The translations under genes were made by a program, and so were the position numbers. Positions 2,690-44,915 of a stretch of DNA of 64,000 nt are shown here, piece by piece (position 1 is the first letter of the stretch; each line of letters begins with the position of its first letter). The stretch comes from Patescibacteria group bacterium (GTDB taxonomy: Bacteria; Patescibacteriota; Patescibacteriia; UBA2591; UBA4787), in the NCBI GenBank assembly GCA_028715115.1, contig JAQUSN010000001.1:3314-67313 (forward strand), in the 5' to 3' direction. The notes under the pieces are model-generated. The model was given only the letters and a program-made list of their open reading frames with translations, ran no database searches and had not been told where the DNA came from.

Positions 2690-2850
2690 TGCCTGCCGGC
2701 AACTAAAATTTTGCCTGCCCGCCATAAGCCAGTCGAAATATTTTTGCCGTTTATTATTAGCAAGGTATGTCTAAATTTTATTTGCTATAACATCTGACAG
2801 GCGATGGCAGGCGGGTGCATCCCGTGAGTCCGACTATAGTCGGACTTTTA
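2690..2850 (-). promoter_or_regulatory. pheT leader containing a GC-rich inverted-repeat pair bracketing a 77-nt AT-rich segment, plus the 18-bp palindrome GTCCGACTATAGTCGGAC
   Basis: gcctgcccgccataagcc at 2713-2730 and ggcgatggcaggcggg at 2800-2815 can pair as a long-range stem with a 2-nt bulge. Palindrome at 2828-2845. Confidence 0.3.
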
Positions 2851-5375: not shown

Positions 5376-6431
5376 TTAAAATTGTCTTAAAAACCTTAAA
5401 TCACCGCCATTAAACCATCTAATGTCATCAACTTTATGACGCATCATCACCAACCGATCTAAACCGATGCCAAAAGCAAAACCAGTATATTGAGGCTGGA
5501 CCTGCCTGCCGGCAGGCAGGTAGCCAGCAGCACGCAAAACATTGGGATGAATCATGCCACAACCGAGCATTTCGACCCAACCGCTTTGACCGCAAACAGG
5601 ACAACCCTGGCCACCACATCTAAGACAAGAAAAATCTAATTCAAAACTTGGTTCAGTAAAAGGAAAATAGCTTGGTCTAAGCCTAACTTCGACGTCGCGA
5701 CCAAATAAATAATGCAAAAAAGTCTTTAAAGTATGAAGTAGGTTAGCTACGGAAACGTTTTTATCAACCACAAATCCTTCAATTTGGTATAAACTATGTT
5801 CGTGTCTAGCATCCGTCGCTTCGTGACGATAGCATTTGCCGATAACGCAAACCTTGAGTGGCGGTTTTTGTTTCTCCATTACCCTAACCTGCATCGCCGA
5901 AGTATGCGCCCTTAAAAGCAATCTGCCATTTTTTGATGGTTGATGATTGAGCCAAAATGTATCCCACATGTCGCGCGCCGGATGATTAGCGGGAATATTT
6001 AAAACATCAAAATGATAATGTTCGTTCTCGACCTCTGGCCCCTCTAGCACCTGCCAACCCATGGAGTGAAAAATGTCAGCTACTCGCATCTTCATTTGCG
6101 TGTGTGGGTGTAAATGACCGAGCTTAATCGTCTGATCAGTTAAATTTAAATTCAAGTCCGGCAAATCGTCGACTTGTCGAGAATCAGCCACTGATAAATC
6201 ATTTTTTCTATTATTTATAGTTGACTCTAAAATATTTTTTACCTCATTGATAAGTCGTCCCATTTCTGCCTTCTCTTGTGGAGTCATATCTTTTATCTTT
6301 ATGCTAAAATTCCGCAATTGCCCGTTGCGTCCTAAATATTTGCGCCACAATTCTTCTAATGAATTAAAGCCGCCCGCCGTTCTAATTTCTTGCAGCGCTG
6401 AATTTTTTAAATTTTCCAAAGACTCTTTCAT
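5376..6431 (-). CDS. pheS: phenylalanine--tRNA ligase alpha subunit
   Basis: 351 aa with class II aaRS motifs (FTEPSFELDF, GCGMIHPNVL, GFAFGIGLDR). Confidence 0.9.
   Translation of the reverse strand: MKESLENLKNSALQEIRTAGGFNSLEELWRKYLGRNGQLRNFSIKIKDMTPQEKAEMGRLINEVKNILESTINNRKNDLSVADSRQVDDLPDLNLNLTDQTIKLGHLHPHTQMKMRVADIFHSMGWQVLEGPEVENEHYHFDVLNIPANHPARDMWDTFWLNHQPSKNGRLLLRAHTSAMQVRVMEKQKPPLKVCVIGKCYRHEATDARHEHSLYQIEGFVVDKNVSVANLLHTLKTFLHYLFGRDVEVRLRPSYFPFTEPSFELDFSCLRCGGQGCPVCGQSGWVEMLGCGMIHPNVLRAAGYLPAGRQVQPQYTGFAFGIGLDRLVMMRHKVDDIRWFNGGDLRFLRQF
5502..5521. repeat. perfect 20-nt GC-rich palindrome CCTGCCTGCCGGCAGGCAGG inserted in frame in pheS
   Basis: Encodes the extra residues (LPAGRQ) relative to the conserved PheS C-terminal alignment. 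Same GCCTGCC/GGCAGGC core as the other GC mini-elements. Confidence 0.6.
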
Positions 6432-6929: not shown

Positions 6930-9900
6930 CTATATTTTACGGTACTCACAAATATCCTTAAAATCGCAATACTTGCAAAGCATACTCGGCTTGGCCGGAA
7001 AATTACTGTGATGAATTTCGTCAAAAATTTTGGCGATTTTTTGTTTCATATCATCCAGCTCGCCCTCCGTCCCTAAAAAAGACAACTGGGAATTATCTTC
7101 TAAAAAAATATAAGTTAATTTTTTAATTTCTTTTTTGAACAAACCGGCCGCGGCTAATTGATAAATCAGTAATTGCTCTTTATCTTCGGCTGATAATTTT
7201 CCGTCTTTAACGGTACCGGTTTTATAATCAATAATTTCTAAACCGTCTCCCAAATCGTCTACCCGGTCAATTTTTCCCTTAATCGTGCAGTCGCCGACCT
7301 TAAAATTAAAATCTAACTCCACATATTGAACGTCTGGTTTCGAGGTGCTGAATTCCTGATAAAATTTCTTTAAACTCTTCTCTCCCTTTTGCCGATATTC
7401 TTCCCGCAACTTATCGTCCGGATACCATTCATCAATCCAGCACTCATCATAAATCTTCATTATCAAATCCTGGTTTGGCACGACAGGCTCTTCCTTTTTC
7501 GGCGTTTCAAATAATTTGCTTTGTACGACTTTCTTCTGCAATAAAACTTGCGACAAAAACTTTTGGAGCGTTAGATGCATAGTCTGGCCAAAACTAAATA
7601 CATAACGGCCGCGAACTGGAATACGCAAAATAAAACCGAATTTATATTGCAACGGGCAATTTTCAAAAGCGCGCAGTTGGCTAAAACTAATTTTGGCCGG
7701 CAAATTAAATTGAGTGATTACTTTTTTTTCTTCCTCTTTAAAAATCGGCAATTTTAAGACTTTTGTTTTTTTACCTATAGCCTCTTCTTTTATTAAACCT
7801 AATTCATATAAAAATCTTGAGGCCTTTTTCTTGCGGGCGCCACCGTAATCATCGGCTAAAGTTAAAAATAAATTATCTTTGGCGCGAGTTAGTGCCACGT
7901 AAAATAATCGCCGTTCTTCTTGTAAATGAATATCGCCTTCGGGAATTATCTCGCGAGTCAAGGCATCGGGCAATTCAACGCCTTCTTTGCGCTCTGAAGT
8001 AGGAAAACGGCGATCAACTAAATTAACTAAAAAAACCGTTTTAAATTCCAGGCCTTTAGCGCCATGAACGGTCATAATTTTTACCGTCTCCGGACCAACT
8101 TCAATAATATCAGTCGGCAACGAGCCCTCATCGCCAGCTTCAATAATAATATCGATCGTCTCAATAAAATTCTTTAATGATTTATCGGTATTGGTTAATT
8201 CGAATTCTTCTATTTTTTTGAAAAATTGGCTAACCCAGGCAACATTCTCTATATTTTCTAGGCCGCCTTTTTCAGCCTGCCGGGAAATACTTTTCAAATA
8301 ACCAGAATCTTCCAAGAAAGAATAAACTATTTTACCCGCGCCCTGCTGTCTGGCCATCTGGCTATGTTTTTCAATCCAGCCCAAAAGCTGATCAATGGCC
8401 GACGCGCCATCTTTGGAAATTTCTTGCAAAGAATGAATTGTTTTTAGTGTTTGATAAAGAGATTTTCCTTTGCGGCGCGCCGCATTTATTATGTTGACTA
8501 AGTCTTCGTTAGTTATTTTTCCGCCCGAGGCGTGAACCCTAGGCTCATCAGCCTTGGGCTGAGATCGGCCTGCCTGTCCGCTAGGCAGGCCCTGGGCCGA
8601 AAAAATCGGCGACGTTAAAATCCGATAAAGCGCTGTGCTTTCGTGATAATTAACTAATAATTTTAAATAGGCCAAAATGTCTAAAATAATCGGCTTAGAA
8701 AATAATCCGCTGTGGGCTAAAAATTGATAAGGCACATTGCGCCAACGCAAAGCCTGGCAAAATATTTCCGCCTGATTATTAGCCCGCACTAAAATGGCAA
8801 AATCGTTCCAACTGGCTTCCGGGTTTTTTTCTTTCATCTCGATAATTTTATCGACTACGGCTTTGGCCTCTTCGTCTTGAGTGGCACTTTGCAGTAAATC
8901 AATGTTTGCGCCATTACCGCGCGTAGCTTCAAGTTTTTTGCAAATTACGTTTTTGGGCAAATCGCCCACTCCGTCAAGCTGAGAAACCTGCGCCTCCAGA
9001 CGATTGGGATTATTAAGCTGAATAAAACGATAGGCCATATCTAATATCTCTTGTCTGGAACGATAATTTTTCACCAAAACAACTTCTTTGGTTTTGGGGT
9101 AATCTCTTTTAAACTGAATAACATTGTTATATGAAGCGCCACGGAATTTATAAATACTCTGGTCATCATCGGCCACTACGGTTAAATTATTCTTTGGAGC
9201 GCCTAATAATTTTAATAATTCATATTGCGACCAATTAGTATCTTGAAATTCATCAACCAAAACATATTTAAACTGTTCCCTGTATTTAGCTAAAACGTTT
9301 GGCCGATCTTTGAAAAGCTTGATCGTATAATTAATCAAATCACCAAAATCAAGCGCCGAATTTTCTAATAATAGTTGCTGGTAAGTTTGATAAGCCTCGG
9401 CGATTTCTTTGAGCCGGCCGGCTTCCTGATCTAAAAGTTTATGGCTGGTTACCGTATCCTGATCTAGGGCAATTTTCTCCGCGTAATTTAAATATTCTTC
9501 GGGTGTAATAAATTCGTCTTTAGCCCGAGAAAAATGCTTGATCAAATCTTGAATGAATTTAAACGGCGTACCGAGCGGCCGATAATAGTTTAGATTAAAA
9601 CGGCTAAAATTCTGGCGGACCAAAAGAGCCTGTTGGGCAGAATTAATGATTTTAAAATTAAGCGGGAGTCCAATTTCAATGGCGTGCTGGCGTAAAATTC
9701 TTTCGCAAAAAGAATGAAAAGTCGAAGCCCAAAGGTCAACATAACCATAAGGTAATAATTTATCAATGCGCTCTTCCATTTCTTCGGCCGCCTTATCAGT
9801 AAAAGTCAAAGCTAAAATTTCTTCGGGTTTGGCCTTTCCGGACAAAATCAGCCAGGCGATGCGCCGGGTAATAACCGTGGTTTTGCCCGTACCCGCTCCG

Positions 9901-9992
9901 GCGATAATTAAAAATGGACCGTCGCCGTGAATGACCGCCTGTTGTTGCTCTTGGTTTAAATCGCTGGTTATTTCTTCTAAAATCATAAGCAT
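6930..9992 (-). CDS. UvrD/PcrA-family ATP-dependent DNA helicase fused to a C-terminal RecB/Cas4-like PD-(D/E)XK nuclease with a Cys cluster
   Basis: Walker A GAGTGKT. UvrD motifs (LVDEFQDTN, VGDDDQSIY-like, TVHGAKGLEF). C-terminal nuclease motifs (DRVDDLGDGLEIIDYKTG) and CKYCDFKDIC. Confidence 0.85.
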   Translation of the reverse strand: MLMILEEITSDLNQEQQQAVIHGDGPFLIIAGAGTGKTTVITRRIAWLILSGKAKPEEILALTFTDKAAEEMEERIDKLLPYGYVDLWASTFHSFCERILRQHAIEIGLPLNFKIINSAQQALLVRQNFSRFNLNYYRPLGTPFKFIQDLIKHFSRAKDEFITPEEYLNYAEKIALDQDTVTSHKLLDQEAGRLKEIAEAYQTYQQLLLENSALDFGDLINYTIKLFKDRPNVLAKYREQFKYVLVDEFQDTNWSQYELLKLLGAPKNNLTVVADDDQSIYKFRGASYNNVIQFKRDYPKTKEVVLVKNYRSRQEILDMAYRFIQLNNPNRLEAQVSQLDGVGDLPKNVICKKLEATRGNGANIDLLQSATQDEEAKAVVDKIIEMKEKNPEASWNDFAILVRANNQAEIFCQALRWRNVPYQFLAHSGLFSKPIILDILAYLKLLVNYHESTALYRILTSPIFSAQGLPSGQAGRSQPKADEPRVHASGGKITNEDLVNIINAARRKGKSLYQTLKTIHSLQEISKDGASAIDQLLGWIEKHSQMARQQGAGKIVYSFLEDSGYLKSISRQAEKGGLENIENVAWVSQFFKKIEEFELTNTDKSLKNFIETIDIIIEAGDEGSLPTDIIEVGPETVKIMTVHGAKGLEFKTVFLVNLVDRRFPTSERKEGVELPDALTREIIPEGDIHLQEERRLFYVALTRAKDNLFLTLADDYGGARKKKASRFLYELGLIKEEAIGKKTKVLKLPIFKEEEKKVITQFNLPAKISFSQLRAFENCPLQYKFGFILRIPVRGRYVFSFGQTMHLTLQKFLSQVLLQKKVVQSKLFETPKKEEPVVPNQDLIMKIYDECWIDEWYPDDKLREEYRQKGEKSLKKFYQEFSTSKPDVQYVELDFNFKVGDCTIKGKIDRVDDLGDGLEIIDYKTGTVKDGKLSAEDKEQLLIYQLAAAGLFKKEIKKLTYIFLEDNSQLSFLGTEGELDDMKQKIAKIFDEIHHSNFPAKPSMLCKYCDFKDICEYRKI
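8577..8601. repeat. GC-rich inverted repeat GGCCTGCC-N9-GGCAGGCC inside the helicase ORF, within a roughly 100-nt GC-rich in-frame insertion
   Basis: Encodes the low-complexity insert SGQAGRSQPKADEPRVHASGG. Sharp local GC rise at 8520-8625. Confidence 0.5.
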
Positions 9993-34580: not shown

Positions 34581-35264
34581 TTAAATAACGTATCGACCGC
34601 CCTTGATTTGATCGCCGATAACCATGCCGTGATCTAAGGTAATTACTCGACGTTTTAATAAATTAACAATTTCTCGATTATGACTCACCAGTAAAATAGT
34701 CGTACCGAATTTATTAATTTTTAAAAGCAAATCAATTATATCTCTGGTATTAATGGAGTCGAGATTGCCAGTCGGCTCATCGGCAATTAAAATTTTTGGC
34801 TTATTGGCAATGGCTCGGGCAATAGCTACGCGCTGCGCCTCGCCAGCCGATAATTGATGAGGCCAACGATTGGCCTTACTTTCTACGCCAACAATGCGTA
34901 AAATTTGCGGAACCATAGCTTTTATTTTTTTTTCCGGAGTACCGACTACTTCAAGGGCAAAAGCAACGTTTTCGTAAACGTTTTTTTTGGGCAATAATTT
35001 AAAATCCTGAAAGACCACACCCACCTGACGGCGTAAATATGGTATTTCTTGACTATTAATATCAGTGATATCCCAGCCGCCAATGATGATTTTGCCCTGG
35101 GTGGCCTTTTCTTCGGCAATAAGCAATTTTATAACCGTGGTTTTGCCGGCACCTGATTGGCCAACCAGGGAAACAAACTCGCCCGCCTCAACACTAAAAG
35201 AAACATTACGCAAAGCATGCGTATTTGGCGGATAGAATTTACTAATGTTGATTAATTTAATCAT
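34581..35264 (-). CDS. ABC transporter ATP-binding protein (FtsE/LolD-like)
   Basis: Walker A GQSGAGKTT, signature LSAGEAQRVAIARA, Walker B ILIADEPT. Confidence 0.8.
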   Translation of the reverse strand: MIKLINISKFYPPNTHALRNVSFSVEAGEFVSLVGQSGAGKTTVIKLLIAEEKATQGKIIIGGWDITDINSQEIPYLRRQVGVVFQDFKLLPKKNVYENVAFALEVVGTPEKKIKAMVPQILRIVGVESKANRWPHQLSAGEAQRVAIARAIANKPKILIADEPTGNLDSINTRDIIDLLLKINKFGTTILLVSHNREIVNLLKRRVITLDHGMVIGDQIKGGRYVI

Positions 35265-35276
35265 TTAATTTTTTTC

Positions 35277-35332
35277 TGGAGCCGAGGGTGAGGATCGAAC
35301 TCACGACCTATGGTTTACGATACCGTTGCCCC
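35277..35332 (-). pseudogene. 3' remnant of a tRNA-Thr-like gene (D-stem 3' side through CCA, anticodon CGU)
   Basis: rc = GGGGCAACGGTATCGTAAACCATAGGTCGTGAGTTCGATCCTCACCCTCGGCTCCA. Its acceptor 3' strand CCTCGGC matches the isolated 5' fragment GCCGAGGTAGCTC at 35625-35637. Confidence 0.5.
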
Positions 35333-35347
35333 GCCTGCCATCGCCCT

Positions 35348-35420
35348 AGCCCGCGGTCGGAATCGAACCGACAACCTACGGTTTACGATACCGTTGCTCT
35401 ACCAGTTGAGCTACACGGGC
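35348..35420 (-). tRNA. tRNA-Thr (anticodon CGU)
   Basis: rc = GCCCGTGTAGCTCAACTGGTAGAGCAACGGTATCGTAAACCGTAGGTTGTCGGTTCGATTCCGACCGCGGGCT. 7-bp acceptor, loop ATCGTAA. Flanked by GGCGATGGCAGGCGGGG (35329-35346) and CCTGCCCGCCATAG (35426-35439). Confidence 0.85.
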
Positions 35421-35444
35421 TCAGGCTATGGCGGGCAGGTCTAC

Positions 35445-35528
35445 CCTACTTCGAGCTTATTAATTAAGCTCGAACGGGCCGTCCAGTTTTTTTCAAAAAC
35501 TGGAATAGGCCAATTGAGCTATCTGGGC
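35445..35528. repeat. conserved double-hairpin repeat (TTCGAGCTTA-N-TAAGCTCGAA, CGGGCCGT, CCAGTTTTT-N3-AAAAACTGG, AATAGG) fused to a 19-nt tRNA 5' fragment (GCCCAGATAGCTCAATTGG on the minus strand)
   Basis: About 80% identical to 41280-41358. The hairpin core is also at 40671-40690. Confidence 0.7.
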
Positions 35529-35624
35529 AAAAGTGGCGGGGCAAGGCTGCCCCGACGTTTTAGTCGGTCCGATGACTCCGACGAGTATCGGACTCCGTCG
35601 GAGGACTCCGACTGTAACGTCGGA

Positions 35625-35637
35625 GAGCTACCTCGGC
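35625..35637 (-). pseudogene. isolated tRNA 5' fragment GCCGAGGTAGCTC (identical to nt 1-13 of tRNA-Thr(UGU) at 40605-40617, plus 2 nt of its upstream flank)
   Basis: rc of gagctacctcggc. Followed on the minus strand by hairpin-rich sequence homologous to 40690-40760. Confidence 0.5.
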
Positions 35638-35820
35638 ATTAACACTCAGTCAGCCTATTAATATAATACACTAGGCTGAAAATTTTTCAATTGGAGCGGG
35701 TAACGGCCTGCCTGCCCTGACTGCCGTCAGGCGGGCGGTAGGCAGGGAATTGAATCTTTACTTGGGAAGTCCTAAAAGTTTTTGCAATCCGCCAAATTGC
35801 GGAGAAGTAGTGAATTTTTG

Positions 35821-40639: not shown

Positions 40640-40760
40640 GACGGGCAGAGCCACTACCGCCCAGTTTTAAGAAAAACTGGAATAGGCTGTTGTCCCGACG
40701 TTTCAGTAGAAAAGTCGGGTCTCCGACCGAAAGCGTCGGAGAGCTAGGGCGGCATGCTCG
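40640..40760. repeat. copy B of the tRNA-associated repeat: hairpin CCAGTTTTAAGAAAAACTGG, hairpin-rich CCCGACG/GTCGGAG segment, and a tRNA-like 5' fragment GCCGCCCTAGCTC
   Basis: Homologous to 35483-35637 (shared CCCGACGTTT, GTCGGAGAGCTA, GGCAT). Degenerate CCTGCCCG-CCGCC motif directly upstream of the tRNA. Confidence 0.55.
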
Positions 40761-40931: not shown

Positions 40932-41004
40932 AGCCCGAGGTCGGATTTGAACCGACGACCTACTCCTTACCATGGAGTTGCTCTACCAGCTGAGCTACCC
41001 GGGC
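40932..41004 (-). tRNA. tRNA-Thr (anticodon GGU)
   Basis: rc = GCCCGGGTAGCTCAGCTGGTAGAGCAACTCCATGGTAAGGAGTAGGTCGTCGGTTCAAATCCGACCTCGGGCT. Confidence 0.85.
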
Positions 41005-41256
41005 ATGTTGTAAATATTGTTTTAAAATTTTCTGCTTTAATTTGGCGCTATATAAACTTTTAAAGTATTTTTCTTGTTCCATCGCTTCAACTCGTGTATC
41101 AAATGATTCTTGATGAATAACAATAAACGGCCTTCTATTTTTTGTCGATATTACCTGCCCACTATTATGTTTTTTAACTCTCGCCACTAGGTCATCAGTT
41201 TGCCCAACATATAATTTTTTATCTTTCAGGCTATATAAGATATAAACAAAATACAT
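40960..41256 (-). CDS. GIY-YIG domain endonuclease (small, URI-type). The 3' end of the ORF runs into the tRNA-Thr(GGU) gene.
   Basis: FVYILYSLKDKKLYVGQTDDLVARVKKHN...E matches GIY / YIG / R / H-N / E spacing. The last roughly 15 codons are tRNA sequence. Confidence 0.65.
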   Translation of the reverse strand: MYFVYILYSLKDKKLYVGQTDDLVARVKKHNSGQVISTKNRRPFIVIHQESFDTRVEAMEQEKYFKSLYSAKLKQKILKQYLQHARVAQLVEQLHGKE

Positions 41257-41279
41257 ATTTTGCTACTTGCTTTACCCTA

Positions 41280-41358
41280 ATTCGAGCTTATTAGATAAGC
41301 TCGAACGGGCCGTCCAGTTTTAAGAAAAACTGGAATAGGCCAGCTGAGCTACCCGGGC
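41280..41358. repeat. copy C of the tRNA-associated repeat plus an exact 19-nt duplicate of the tRNA-Thr(GGU) 5' end (GCCCGGGTAGCTCAGCTGG, with 2 nt of upstream flank)
   Basis: ttcgagcttattagataagctcgaacgggccgtccagttttaagaaaaactggaataggccagctgagctacccgggc. Confidence 0.7.
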
Positions 41359-44799: not shown

Positions 44800-44915
44800 C
44801 AAGGGAGCGACCTGCCCGCCTATTGCCTATCCAAGAGTTAATCTAAACAAGAATTAAAGAAACAATATTCTTTCTAGGTTTTAACTCCATGGGACGGCGT
44901 TGGCAGGCGGGGCGA
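44800..44915 (-). promoter_or_regulatory. glyQS leader carrying the same GC-rich inverted-repeat pair as the pheT leader (CCTGCCCGCC-TAT ... GGCG-TT-GGCAGGCGGGG) around a 75-nt AT-rich segment. Upstream -10 TATAAT abuts the palindrome GGATGTTATACATCC.
   Basis: Arms at 44808-44820 and 44896-44912. Palindromes at 44973-44987 and CCGCCAGCCGGCGG at 44945-44958. Confidence 0.3.

What the first reader, a model, noticed from the sequence alone, without database searches (positions are those of the whole stretch)
35329..35439. GC-clamp inverted-repeat pair (CCTGCCCGCC-ATAG ... GGCG-AT-GGCAGGCGGGG) precisely brackets the intact tRNA-Thr(CGU)
The 16-mer GGCGATGGCAGGCGGG at 35330-35345 (minus orientation) is identical to 2800-2815 in the pheT leader. 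TATGGCGGGCAGG at 35427-35439 is identical to the other arm of the pheT-leader pair (2713-2727, rc). In the pheT and glyQS leaders the same two arms bracket 77- and 75-nt AT-rich segments. Here they bracket a 73-nt tRNA gene. The arms can pair: GCCUGCC-NN-CGCC with GGCG-GGCAGGC. Two explanations fit: a MITE-like element family whose terminal repeats carry variable cargo, here including a tRNA; or a conserved RNA clamp involved in processing or regulation.
Basis: seen in the sequence. Interest (0 to 1): 0.75.

Follow-up and report, generated by a model that had tools for sequence, protein, structure and literature searches.

The report
tRNA gene nested inside broken tRNA
The two GC-rich arms are the inverted ends of a small repeated insertion element that here carries a complete threonine tRNA gene and sits inside the broken remains of the older threonine tRNA gene it replaced, a pattern that recurs in many candidate-phyla-radiation bacteria and that I could not find described.

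Summary
CCTGCCCGCCATAGCC (35439-35424) and GGCGATGGCAGGCGGG (35345-35330), minus strand, flank tRNA-Thr(CGU). The same arms flank about 70 nt of AT-rich filler upstream of pheT and glyQS.

The 110-nt arm-tRNA-arm unit lies inside the D-stem of an older tRNA-Thr(CGU) gene. Its pieces are 35637-35625, 35452-35440 and 35329-35277. Joined in silico, they fold as tRNA-Thr(CGU).

Three related metagenome contigs (FtsE 84-85% identical) carry that older tRNA intact at the same place upstream of ftsE. This is an empty site.

These were mostly Patescibacteria and Desulfobacterales. Twenty-two arm pairs hold a tRNA, and all 22 sit inside tRNA-like flanks. In 12 an intact outer tRNA is recovered, and 11 have the same anticodon as the inner one.

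Outer copies are often decayed or hit again. No arm element with non-tRNA cargo was seen in a tRNA lacking a live copy within or beside it.

Best reading: a non-autonomous palindromic element whose tRNA-carrying form overwrites the cognate tRNA gene. The arms probably also form an RNA processing stem. The enzyme and the targeting mechanism are unknown. I found no published description.

The parts
35330..35439 (-). Whole 110-nt element: left arm, 3-nt linker, tRNA-Thr(CGU), 1-2-nt linker, right arm.
   Evidence: It folds as one rod closed by the arms, -61.5 kcal/mol, z = -4.7.
35424..35439 (-). Left arm CCTGCCCGCCATAGCC (5' terminal inverted repeat).
   Evidence: Exact 13-mer shared with 2714-2726. 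The same 10-nt core is present in over 120 loci elsewhere.
35330..35345 (-). Right arm GGCGATGGCAGGCGGG (3' terminal inverted repeat).
   Evidence: Exact 16-mer shared with 2800-2815, and a 1-mismatch copy at 44896-44911. Chance expectation is 0.23.
35347..35421 (-). Inner, intact tRNA-Thr(CGU). This is the presumed working gene (generation 2). It has no encoded CCA.
   Evidence: ARAGORN. Rfam tRNA 68.3 bits. Its closest relative is the inner tRNA of L068, at 0.88 identity.
35277..35329 (-). 3' part of the outer, older tRNA-Thr(CGU): half of the D-stem, the anticodon arm with a C.A mismatch, the T-arm, the acceptor 3' strand and CCA.
   Evidence: It is 96% identical over 53 nt to the intact tRNA of L127. 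Its last 37 nt are identical to the intact alleles in L127, L139 and L167.
35440..35452 (-). D-loop piece GAAGTAGGGTAGA of the outer tRNA, directly abutting the left arm. The insertion point is TAGA|GC.
35625..35637 (-). 5' fragment of the outer tRNA, GCCGAGGTAGCTC (acceptor 5' strand plus D-stem 5' strand).
   Evidence: It pairs 7/7 with the acceptor 3' strand at 35281-35287. ARAGORN calls tRNA-Thr(cgt) when the three outer pieces are joined. A heuristic that ignores the arms also finds it.
35453..35624 (-). A second, older 172-nt insertion in the outer D-loop. It holds TCCGAC hairpins and a GC hairpin ending in CACTTTT, then a 19-nt 5' fragment of a further dead tRNA (GCCCAGATAGCTCAATTGG, 35528-35510; generation 1), then a 'CCTATTCCAG...' module.
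   Evidence: The same TCCGAC element lies in a tRNA D-loop in L093. The same 'CACTTTT|tRNA' leader occurs in L148, L149 and L164.
35663..35690 (-). Promoter-like site TTGAAA-16-TATTAT, about 26 nt upstream of the outer tRNA 5' end. It is the only one on this strand upstream of the nested array.
   Evidence: 10 of 12 consensus positions. This is a consensus match only.
2714..2815 (+). Sister copy A: the same arms around about 70 nt of AT-rich non-tRNA filler. It lies in the pheT upstream region and is inverted relative to the gene.
   Evidence: rod fold, z = -4.15 on the gene's strand. The cargo has no relative among 87 elements.
44811..44911 (+). Sister copy C: near-identical arms (ACCTGCCCGCCTAT / GGCGTTGGCAGGCGGG) around AT-rich filler. 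It lies between a promoter-like site and the start of the glycine-tRNA ligase gene.

Best explanation
The arms are the 16-nt imperfect terminal inverted repeats of a family of short (about 90-115 bp), non-coding, hairpin-forming insertion elements. The family is common in Patescibacteria and, as nested arrays, in Desulfobacterales genomes. Most copies carry unrelated AT-rich filler and sit between genes, as at pheT and glyQS here.

The copy at 35330-35439 is the tRNA-carrying form. A complete tRNA-Thr(CGU) lies flush between the arms, and the unit is inserted at TAGA|GC in the D-stem of the resident tRNA-Thr(CGU) gene. The resident gene is thereby destroyed and the carried copy takes over.

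What is shown:
- The nesting.
- The filled and empty alleles.
- The recurrence in cognate tRNAs.
- The decay of outer copies.

What is inferred:
- The whole array is read from the old gene's promoter.
- The arms, linkers and acceptor stem form a rod of about 23 bp. The rod isolates the inner tRNA from its look-alike flanks and gives a double-stranded site for endonuclease cutting, followed by RNase P and 3' trimming.
- Spread at the DNA level is homing-like. A break in an intact cognate tRNA gene, or recombination using the conserved tRNA halves as homology arms, copies the cassette in.
- The enzyme is supplied in trans. The small GIY-YIG nuclease encoded beside a similarly rearranged tRNA-Thr(GGU), 5.5 kb away, is the only candidate seen.
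For: (1) Family. At least 120 loci hold the exact arm pair. Cargo is none, AT-rich filler or a tRNA, and elements nest within elements.

(2) Nest in the window. The three outer pieces join into an ARAGORN tRNA-Thr(cgt).

(3) Empty site. L127, L139 and L167 (FtsE 84-85% identical to the window's) carry the uninterrupted tRNA GCCGAGG...CCTCGGCTCCA upstream of ftsE, within about 40 nt in L139 and L167 and about 250 nt in L127. Its last 37 nt are identical to the window's outer 3' part.

(4) Cognate nesting is general. All 22 tRNA-carrying arm elements lie in tRNA-like flanks. In 12 an intact outer tRNA is recovered, and 11 of those 12 share the inner tRNA's anticodon.

(5) Independent insertions. 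The same inner lineage sits in the same outer lineage at different positions: Arg-UCG at offsets 34 and 18 (L089, L094), and Ala-CGC in the D-loop and in the anticodon loop (L093, L111).

(6) Horizontal origin. The window's inner tRNA is closest to that of L068 (0.88 identity), whose FtsE is only 66% identical. Relatives at 84-85% FtsE identity lack the cassette.

(7) The outer copy is dispensable. It is decayed or hit again in the window, L009, L027, L051, L054, L083, L093 and L106. Non-tRNA cargo in a tRNA was seen only where a live copy lies within or beside it (L043, L055).

(8) Succession. In L125 the same outer tRNA is interrupted by a different cassette, with ends GCCCCGTTAGA/CTAACGGGGT. 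That cassette's tRNA is in turn the interrupted outer copy in L124.

(9) RNA side. Rod folds have z of -4.1 to -4.7. Linker positions covary (TGA/..CA against ATC/..AT). There is one promoter-like site, upstream of the outer 5' end.
Against: - No transposase, integrase or nuclease lies within or consistently next to the elements. No long autonomous copy was found in about 0.9 Mb of loci.
- The GIY-YIG association is weak: 2 of 5 such ORFs lie within about 100 nt of an element.
- How a 110-nt non-coding unit finds the cognate tRNA is unexplained. The first origin of each nest is also unexplained.
- There are no expression data, so promoter use, processing and the inactivity of the outer copy are all inferred.
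- Twelve outer tRNAs are still perfect cloverleaves with the right anticodon. I attribute this to recency, but it would also fit selection on the outer copy.
- The census is biased.
Confidence: 0.68

Rival explanations
1. The arm-tRNA-arm unit is an RNA intron of a new bacterial kind. The outer tRNA is still functional because the arm helix marks the insert for excision and the exons are re-ligated. One transcript then yields two tRNA-Thr(CGU) molecules.
For: - Twelve of 22 outer tRNAs are intact cloverleaves, and 11 have the correct anticodon.
- Inner and outer copies differ by compensatory changes, so both keep perfect stems.
- Insertions fall in D- and anticodon loops, as archaeal tRNA introns do.
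- The arm helix brings the two exon ends together.
Against: - In the window the outer gene carries a further 172-nt insertion and a stem mismatch.
- Outer copies are visibly decayed in L009, L051, L054, L083 and L106.
- No arm element with non-tRNA cargo was found in a tRNA that lacks a live copy within or beside it. That is unexpected if the arms were sufficient for splicing.
- The helix is flush with the exons, so there is no bulge-helix-bulge.
- There is no group I or group II signature in Rfam.
- Insertions inside the anticodon (offsets 33-34) would demand exact splicing by a machinery unknown in bacteria.
- Close relatives have the uninterrupted gene.
Confidence: 0.07
2. The arms are not ends of a mobile element. 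They are a conserved cis-acting RNA clamp, a leader-trailer processing or stability stem, that evolved in place around the tRNA and in the two aminoacyl-tRNA-synthetase leaders.
For: - All three window copies lie in transcribed-looking positions: within a tRNA transcription unit and in two 5' leaders.
- The rod folds are stable.
- The linkers covary.
- In Saccharibacteria, arm elements lie a fixed 11 nt before start codons.
Against: - There are filled and empty alleles at the same site.
- The same cassette lineage lies at different positions of the same tRNA.
- Elements nest within elements, and there are tandem arm arrays in Desulfobacterales.
- Small related palindromes lie inside ORFs.
- Cargo is unrelated between copies.
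- Orientation relative to the gene is inverted at pheT and glyQS compared with the tRNA copy.
- Identical 16-mers across phyla are hard to explain by in-place evolution.
Confidence: 0.1
3. The nests are born in place. A palindrome-provoked replication or repair error, such as template switching at the hairpin, duplicates the local tRNA inside itself. No element carrying a tRNA ever moves.
For: - Some inner and outer pairs are nearly identical outside the acceptor stem: L033 at 0.89 and L022 at 0.87.
- The cargo matches the target in every case.
- No mobility enzyme was found.
- Long quasi-palindromes are known hot spots for templated mutation (established knowledge).
Against: - Inner tRNAs form their own lineage across hosts, with a body differing at 0.10 per site. 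They differ from their own outer tRNAs at 0.20-0.38 per site.
- The window's inner copy resembles that of a distant host, not its own outer copy or its close relatives.
- Cargo boundaries are flush with the tRNA ends in all cases.
- The model does not explain where the conserved arms come from.
Confidence: 0.1
4. The arm identity is chance, or the nested arrangement is a mis-assembly of repeated tRNA sequences in a metagenome-assembled genome.
For: The source is a MAG. One relative (L123) has a run of N exactly at this locus.
Against: - 0 of 100 shuffles reach the observed arm count.
- The locus is identical in two independent assemblies.
- The same architecture occurs in over 20 unrelated MAGs.
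Confidence: 0.02

Closest known systems
Bacterial MITE-like palindromic repeats. Examples are Neisseria Correia elements, Rickettsia palindromic elements, REP/BIME and ERIC (from my own knowledge).
   Same: They are short, non-coding, multi-copy and bounded by inverted repeats. They fold as long hairpins and lie in intergenic or leader regions, sometimes inside genes. Correia elements are cut by RNase III in transcripts, which is the role I infer for the arms.
   Different: None is known to carry a complete tRNA gene or to nest specifically in the cognate tRNA gene. There is no target-site duplication at the tRNA sites here, and no partner transposase was identified. The identical ends are shared across phyla.
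Genomic islands and prophages that integrate into tRNA genes and carry a copy of the displaced tRNA segment (from my own knowledge).
   Same: The insertion disrupts a tRNA gene, and the element brings the sequence that restores function. A displaced remnant of the old gene is left behind.
   Different: Those elements are kilobases long and encode an integrase. They duplicate only the 3' (rarely the 5') part as direct repeats. Here a 110-nt unit with no ORF carries the whole tRNA, is bounded by inverted repeats, and splits the old gene in a loop.
Free-standing homing endonuclease cassettes. One example is phage T4 SegB, a GIY-YIG enzyme acting in the tRNA gene cluster (title and abstract of PMC13096335, from the search listing). 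Another is homing-endonuclease genes in fungal mitochondria that bring a replacement gene fragment (PMC7315562, from the search listing).
   Same: The element spreads selfishly into the allele that lacks it. There are filled and empty alleles. The element supplies a resistant or replacement copy of what it disrupts. A small GIY-YIG ORF lies beside a rearranged tRNA-Thr(GGU) in this window.
   Different: There is no endonuclease gene in or next to the arm element. Cleavage of tRNA genes was not shown. The inverted-repeat ends are not a feature of homing cassettes.
Archaeal tRNA introns at non-canonical positions, and their proposed transposition (PMC4090602, from the search listing).
   Same: Short inserts lie at varied positions in D- and anticodon loops of tRNA genes. 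Related inserts occur in different tRNAs.
   Different: Archaeal introns are defined by a bulge-helix-bulge at the exon-intron junctions and are removed by a splicing endonuclease. Here the helix is flush, the host is bacterial, the insert contains a full cognate tRNA, and the outer genes decay.
Group I introns in Patescibacteria tRNA genes (PMC13011429).
   Same: Same phylum, and the same kind of target: tRNA loops.
   Different: Those are self-splicing ribozymes of several hundred nt in the anticodon loop, detected with RF00028. Nothing here matches any Rfam family other than tRNA.

Membership tests
MITE (miniature inverted-repeat transposable element) | Short, non-coding, and present in multiple copies. 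| tested here: met
   The elements are 86-115 bp (a range set partly by the search pattern). There are three copies in 64 kb. At least 5 loci come from one Patescibacteria-type MAG (C24_metabat.bin.43), and about 20 loci come from one Desulfobacterales MAG.
MITE (miniature inverted-repeat transposable element) | Terminal inverted repeats. | tested here: met
   The 16-nt arms pair in register with one G.U and two mismatches.
MITE (miniature inverted-repeat transposable element) | Target-site duplication flanking the element. | tested here: not met
   At all tRNA sites, removing the arm-to-arm unit restores the outer tRNA exactly, with no duplicated bases. There are occasional direct repeats elsewhere, such as 8 nt in L005 and GCGA at window copy C, but they are not consistent.
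MITE (miniature inverted-repeat transposable element) | An autonomous relative with the same ends that encodes a transposase. | tested here: inconclusive
   No arm pair 250-5000 nt apart, and no recurrent neighbouring protein, was found in 120 loci. Whole genomes were not searched.
Group I or group II intron | A conserved ribozyme core, detectable with Rfam covariance models. | tested here: not met
   Only tRNA reached the gathering threshold in the window and in 8 related loci. A permissive scan of 35200-35800 gave nothing relevant.
Archaeal-type (bulge-helix-bulge) tRNA intron | Two 3-nt bulges separated by a 4-bp helix at the exon-intron boundaries. | tested here: not met
   The arm helix starts at the first and last base of the insert. 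The splice points would lie opposite each other at a flush helix end.
Archaeal-type (bulge-helix-bulge) tRNA intron | A host splicing endonuclease and ligase, and a spliced product. | not testable with these tools
   Only 64 kb of the genome is available, and there are no RNA data.
tRNA-targeting integrative element (tyrosine-integrase island) | An integrase gene, and direct att repeats formed by a partial tRNA copy. | tested here: not met
   There is no ORF in the element, no integrase among the neighbours, a full tRNA copy, and inverted rather than direct ends.
Homing-endonuclease cassette | Filled and empty alleles of the same site in related genomes. | tested here: met
   The window is filled. 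L127, L139 and L167 are empty. L125 is filled by another cassette at another position of the same tRNA.
Homing-endonuclease cassette | An endonuclease gene in or beside the element, and cleavage of the empty allele. | tested here: inconclusive
   There is none in the element. A 98-aa GIY-YIG ORF (Pfam E = 1.1e-16) lies at 40960-41256, next to a rearranged tRNA-Thr(GGU). Homologues lie within about 100 nt of arm elements in L055 and L061 only. Cleavage is not testable here.

The most novel reading that the evidence does not exclude
The arm-clamped tRNA cassettes may be a previously unrecognised class of selfish element whose target is specified by its own cargo. The carried tRNA, as DNA homology or as an RNA guide for a nuclease supplied in trans, would direct insertion into the loops of the cognate tRNA gene. 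That would drive serial overwriting of tRNA genes in Patescibacteria. An even more radical reading is not excluded, at about 0.07: the outer tRNAs are rescued by a bacterial splicing pathway that is not self-splicing.
Probability: 0.2. Interest if true: 0.9.

Novelty: new variant of a known kind. Interest (0 to 1): 0.78.

Why it matters
If this reading is right:

- tRNA genes in these reduced genomes are not static housekeeping loci. They are repeatedly overwritten by tiny cassettes that bring their own replacement tRNA. The result is stacks of dead tRNA fragments around each live gene.
- This bears on tRNA annotation and on completeness scoring of Patescibacteria MAGs. Fragments and nested genes confuse tRNA finders, and one relative has an assembly gap exactly at this locus.
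- It gives a concrete case of a mobile element that neutralises its own damage with a 75-nt cargo.
- The strict pairing of cargo with target poses a sharp and testable question about how a non-coding 110-nt unit finds its cognate gene.
- The conserved arms offer a simple search key for the whole family.

Tried and rejected
- **T-box or other leader riboswitch upstream of pheT and glyQS.** No Rfam family other than tRNA reaches threshold.
- **Known RNA families in the nested region and in related loci.** Only sub-threshold noise was found.
- **Autonomous element.** I looked for arms 250-5000 nt apart around an ORF. None was found in 120 loci.
- **Recurrent neighbouring protein.** The only large cluster is spurious ORFs reading through Desulfobacterales repeats.
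- **GIY-YIG as a consistent neighbour.** Only 5 occur in about 0.9 Mb, and 2 are adjacent to an element. This is suggestive at most.
- **Homology between the AT-rich cargos of window copies A and C, or with any other cargo.** Best identity was about 0.65-0.67, which is background. I therefore cannot say whether they are decayed tRNAs.
- **Second end family (CCCGTTAGA) in the window.** It is not enriched.
- **Loop-loop pairing between the element and the target as a targeting device.** I rejected this on geometry. Inner and outer tRNAs are always co-oriented, so their loops are identical rather than complementary.
- **Single-crossover integration of a circular cassette.** Rejected because it would give tandem chimeric tRNAs, not a nest.
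- **Literature.** Eight full-text searches returned no description. They covered the motif strings, Patescibacteria with MITE, tRNA or intron, interrupted or replacement tRNA genes, and GIY-YIG with tRNA. The library does not include most subscription journals.
- **Taxon labels.** The MAGs labelled 'uncultured Gammaproteobacteria' that carry these elements could not be re-classified. L068 has 29% GC, and its FtsE is 66% identical to this Patescibacteria one.
Full report
**1. Observation**

- GGCGATGGCAGGCGGG is exact at 2800-2815(+) and 35330-35345(-). A copy with one mismatch lies at 44896-44911(+). No shuffle of the window reaches the observed count.
- CCTGCCCGCCATA is exact at 2714-2726(+) and 35427-35439(-).
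- Between the minus-strand pair lies tRNA-Thr(CGU): ARAGORN 35347-35421, and Rfam 35348-35420 at 68.3 bits.
- The other two pairs flank AT-rich filler. They lie upstream of pheT (Pfam B3_4, B5 and FDX-ACB domains) and of a glycine-tRNA ligase (NF003211, 605 bits).

Read in register, the arms are 16-nt imperfect inverted repeats. With the linkers and the acceptor stem they form a rod of about 23 bp (-61.5 kcal/mol, z = -4.7). Copies A and C fold as similar rods.

The window comes from a Patescibacteria MAG (GCA_028686935.1). Its FtsE is named accordingly by NCBI. An independent assembly reproduces the junction.

**2.

On the minus strand, the sequence just outside the arms is GTAGGGTAGA on the left and GCAACGGTATCGTAAACCATAGGTCGTGAGTTCGATCCTCACCCTCGGCTCCA on the right. 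These are the two sides of a tRNA D-arm, followed by a complete anticodon arm, T-arm, acceptor strand and CCA.

The matching 5' strand, GCCGAGGTAGCTC, lies 185 nt further upstream at 35637-35625. Joining 35637-35625, 35452-35440 and 35329-35277 gives a sequence that ARAGORN calls tRNA-Thr(cgt), with a single C.A mismatch in the anticodon stem.

So the 110-nt arm-tRNA-arm unit interrupts an older tRNA-Thr(CGU) gene at TAGA|GC. That older gene also carries a 172-nt insertion in its D-loop. The insertion contains the 19-nt 5' end of yet another dead tRNA (35528-35510) and two other small repeat modules.

The locus therefore holds three generations of the same tRNA, and only the innermost is intact.

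**3. Empty site**

I scanned metagenome contigs for the outer-lineage tRNA uninterrupted across the D-arm. This returned 42 loci.

Three of them (L127, L139, L167) encode an FtsE 84-85% identical to the window's. In each, directly upstream of that gene, lies the intact tRNA GCCGAGGTAGCTCAGTTGGTAGAGCAATGGTTTCGTAAACCATAGGTCGTGAGTTCGATCCTCACCCTCGGCTCCA. Its last 37 nt are identical to the window's outer 3' part, and L127 aligns to 35329-35277 at 96%.

The two positions where the window's outer copy differs both match the inner tRNA. This suggests a short gene-conversion tract.

A fourth relative, L125 (FtsE 85%), has the same outer tRNA. It is continuous at TAGA|GC but interrupted elsewhere in its D-loop by a different cassette, with ends GCCCCGTTAGA/CTAACGGGGT around another live tRNA-Thr(CGU). 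Its T-loop carries a further insert.

In L124 (FtsE 88%) the tRNA that is live in L125 is itself the interrupted outer copy, and a third tRNA lies inside it. This is succession, not a single ancient event.

**4. The family**

From the record titles:
- about 37 are named Patescibacteria lineages;
- 22 more are low-GC MAGs labelled only 'bacterium' or 'Gammaproteobacteria';
- 55 are Desulfobacterales or related lineages;
- a few are high-GC genomes that are probably chance hits.

Including the window, I extracted 145 arm pairs.
- In Desulfobacterales the arms occur in nested and tandem arrays, consistent with elements inserting into elements.
- In Saccharibacteria a subfamily with a conserved non-tRNA cargo lies a fixed 11 nt before the start codons of unrelated genes. 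It sits within a second inverted repeat, CCCGTTAGAGG/CCTCTAACGGG.
- A cargo-less 33-nt arm hairpin exists in L067.

**5. Cognate nesting is the rule**

Twenty-two arm pairs enclose an intact tRNA: Thr-CGU, Thr-UGU, five Arg isoacceptors, two Pro, Cys and Ala. All 22 lie between sequences that read as the two sides of a tRNA D-loop or anticodon loop.

After removing the unit in silico, ARAGORN finds an intact outer tRNA in 12. Eleven of those have the same anticodon as the inner one. The twelfth has a decayed anticodon arm.

Insertion offsets are 18-24 (D-loop and D-stem) and 33-38 (anticodon loop).

A heuristic that ignores the arms looks for a perfect acceptor pair plus a T-arm enclosing a detected tRNA. 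It recovers 14 of 77 tRNAs in the fetched loci. These include nests bounded by other end families and a nested tRNA-Gly(CCC) in L126.

**6. Mobile, and from elsewhere**

The same inner lineage occupies different positions of the same outer lineage in different genomes:
- Arg-UCG at offsets 34 and 18 (L089, L094);
- Ala-CGC in the D-loop and in the anticodon loop (L093, L111).

These are independent insertions.

For Thr(CGU), inner tRNAs cluster with one another (0.70-0.88 identity), and outer tRNAs cluster with one another (0.64-0.80). Partners in one locus share only 0.68-0.78.

The window's inner tRNA is closest to that of L068, whose FtsE is 66% identical. Relatives at 84-85% lack the cassette.

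Within the inner lineage the body is conserved (0.10 differences per site). The acceptor stem, which is part of the long palindrome, differs at 0.46 per site while staying fully paired. This fits either templated correction within a quasi-palindrome or selection to differ from the resident gene. I cannot tell which.

**7. Dead outer copy or spliced outer copy?**

The outer gene is multiply interrupted or decayed in the window and in at least seven other loci.

Arm elements with non-tRNA cargo were found inside tRNAs only where a live copy lies within or beside them:
- L043, which also holds a second cassette with a live tRNA;
- L055, where an intact tRNA-Arg(ACG) lies 90 nt downstream.

If the arms sufficed for splicing, filler-carrying elements should be tolerated in tRNAs that have no replacement. 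None was seen.

The helix is flush with the exons rather than a bulge-helix-bulge, and no ribozyme family matches.

I therefore treat the outer genes as casualties. The twelve intact ones I read as recent insertions. The intron reading keeps a small probability because it has not been tested with RNA data.

**8. How it probably works**

Shown: the structure, the empty site, recurrence, cognate pairing, and turnover.

Inferred:
- (a) Expression. The only promoter-like site on the strand is TTGAAA-16-TATTAT at 35690-35663, just upstream of the outer 5' end. The inner tRNA would then be made from a precursor with a leader of about 235 nt.
- (b) The arm rod keeps the inner tRNA from mispairing with its near-identical flanks and offers a double-stranded cleavage site. 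RNase P and 3' trimming would finish the job. Linker covariation (TGA with CA, ATC with AT) supports pairing up to the acceptor stem.
- (c) Spread is homing-like, through a break in an intact cognate gene or recombination on the conserved tRNA halves. No enzyme is encoded in the element.

The one lead for the enzyme is a 98-aa GIY-YIG ORF (40960-41256). It lies between a 19-nt duplicate of the tRNA-Thr(GGU) 5' end and the intact tRNA-Thr(GGU). Homologues lie beside arm elements in L055 and L061.

How the cargo and the target come to match in every case is the main open question.

**9. Comparison and novelty**

The elements behave like bacterial palindromic MITEs. They fail the target-duplication criterion, and no partner transposase was found.

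They share the principle 'bring what you break' with tRNA-targeting islands, and the filled/empty logic with homing cassettes. They share insertion sites with archaeal tRNA introns. They meet the defining features of none of these families (see the membership table).

Eight full-text searches found no description. [quoted passage not shown]

I rate this a new variant of known kinds, with a real chance that the targeting mechanism is new.

**10. Limits**

- The census used an exact 24-nt bait and a fixed gap, so length and frequency figures are biased.
- Most sources are MAGs, and some taxon labels are doubtful.
- Only 64 kb of the source genome was available.
- Nothing about transcription, processing or mobility was measured.

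Noticed in passing
window 40932-41358 (minus strand): The tRNA-Thr(GGU) locus is also rearranged. In order it holds an exact 19-nt duplicate of the tRNA's 5' end (41358-41340), a 'CCTATTCCAG...' module (41339-41273), and a 98-aa GIY-YIG ORF (41256-40960; Pfam E = 1.1e-16, with weak similarity to group I intron endonucleases). The ORF's end overlaps the intact tRNA (41004-40932). It looks like a nuclease cassette inserted in the D-loop that carries a replacement 5' part.
   Followed up: partly
window 35483-35509, 40660-40686, 41273-41339: A second repeat family: CCTATTCCAGTTTTT..AAAACTGG(A/G)CGG, plus, in two copies, a GTTCGAGCTTA..TAAGCTCGAA hairpin ending in TAGGG. It lies upstream of all three tRNA-Thr genes. 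In two cases it is inserted right after the GG of a dead tRNA D-loop. No Rfam match.
   Followed up: partly
window 2829-2844, 35607-35624, 40722-40740; also L093: A third repeat family: TCCGAC...GTCGGA hairpins (3 found against 0.03 expected). Two copies follow directly after the ...TAGCTC of dead tRNA 5' fragments. The same element interrupts a tRNA-Ala D-loop in L093. One copy abuts the right arm of the pheT-leader element.
   Followed up: partly
window about 35695-35780 (minus strand): Downstream of the live tRNA-Gly(CCC) lies what reads as the 3' half of a dead tRNA-Gly(CCC): ACTTCCCAAGT ... ATTCAATTCC ... CCGTTACCCGCTCCA. A GC-rich hairpin (CCCTGCCTACCGCCCGCCTGACGGCAGTCAGGGCAGGCAGG) sits in its T-arm. 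Relative L126 has a clear nested tRNA-Gly(CCC).
   Followed up: partly
window 5500-5521 and 8567-8591: Short GC palindromes resembling the arm core lie inside long ORFs (5376-6431 and 6930-9992, minus strand): ACCTGCCTGCCGGCAGGCAGGT and GGCCTGCCTGTCCGCTAGGCAGGCC. GCCTGCC is over-represented in the window, at 17 against 4.6 expected. These may be in-frame mini-insertions. Reading frame and orthologues were not checked.
   Followed up: no
L017, L018, L030, L049, L061, L063, L071, L084, L101, L116 (Saccharibacteria-type MAGs): An arm-element subfamily with a conserved non-tRNA cargo (...AAAGCCAGAGCG..TTTATTAA.TAATCAAG..GCTTYAGGCG...). It is always followed by CYTCTAACGGG and then the ATG of unrelated genes. 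The inverted CCCGTTAGARG lies about 100 nt upstream of the element. It may be a mobile leader or promoter module.
   Followed up: no
L124 2060-2200, L125 2215-2480: A different pair of inverted ends, (G)CCCCGTTAGA / TCTAACGGGG, brackets live tRNA-Thr(CGU) genes nested in older ones. So 'inverted ends plus cognate tRNA' is an architecture shared by at least two unrelated end sequences.
   Followed up: partly
L003, L016, L031, L037, L053 and about 50 other Desulfobacterales loci: The same arm sequences occur as tandem left arms (21-nt period) followed by short hairpins and stacked right arms. There are many loci per MAG, at high coverage. It is unexplained why one end sequence is shared between Patescibacteria and Desulfobacterales.
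   Followed up: no
L123 2328-2427: The NCBI assembly of a close relative has a run of N exactly where the nested tRNA-Thr cassette lies in the ENA assembly of the same population (L124). Nested tRNAs evidently break or mask assemblies.
   Followed up: no
L068, L027, L044, L056, L067, L098, L106, L111, L117: MAGs titled 'uncultured Gammaproteobacteria' carry these Patescibacteria-style nests. L068 has 29% GC and an FtsE 66% identical to the window's. The taxon labels are probably wrong.
   Followed up: no
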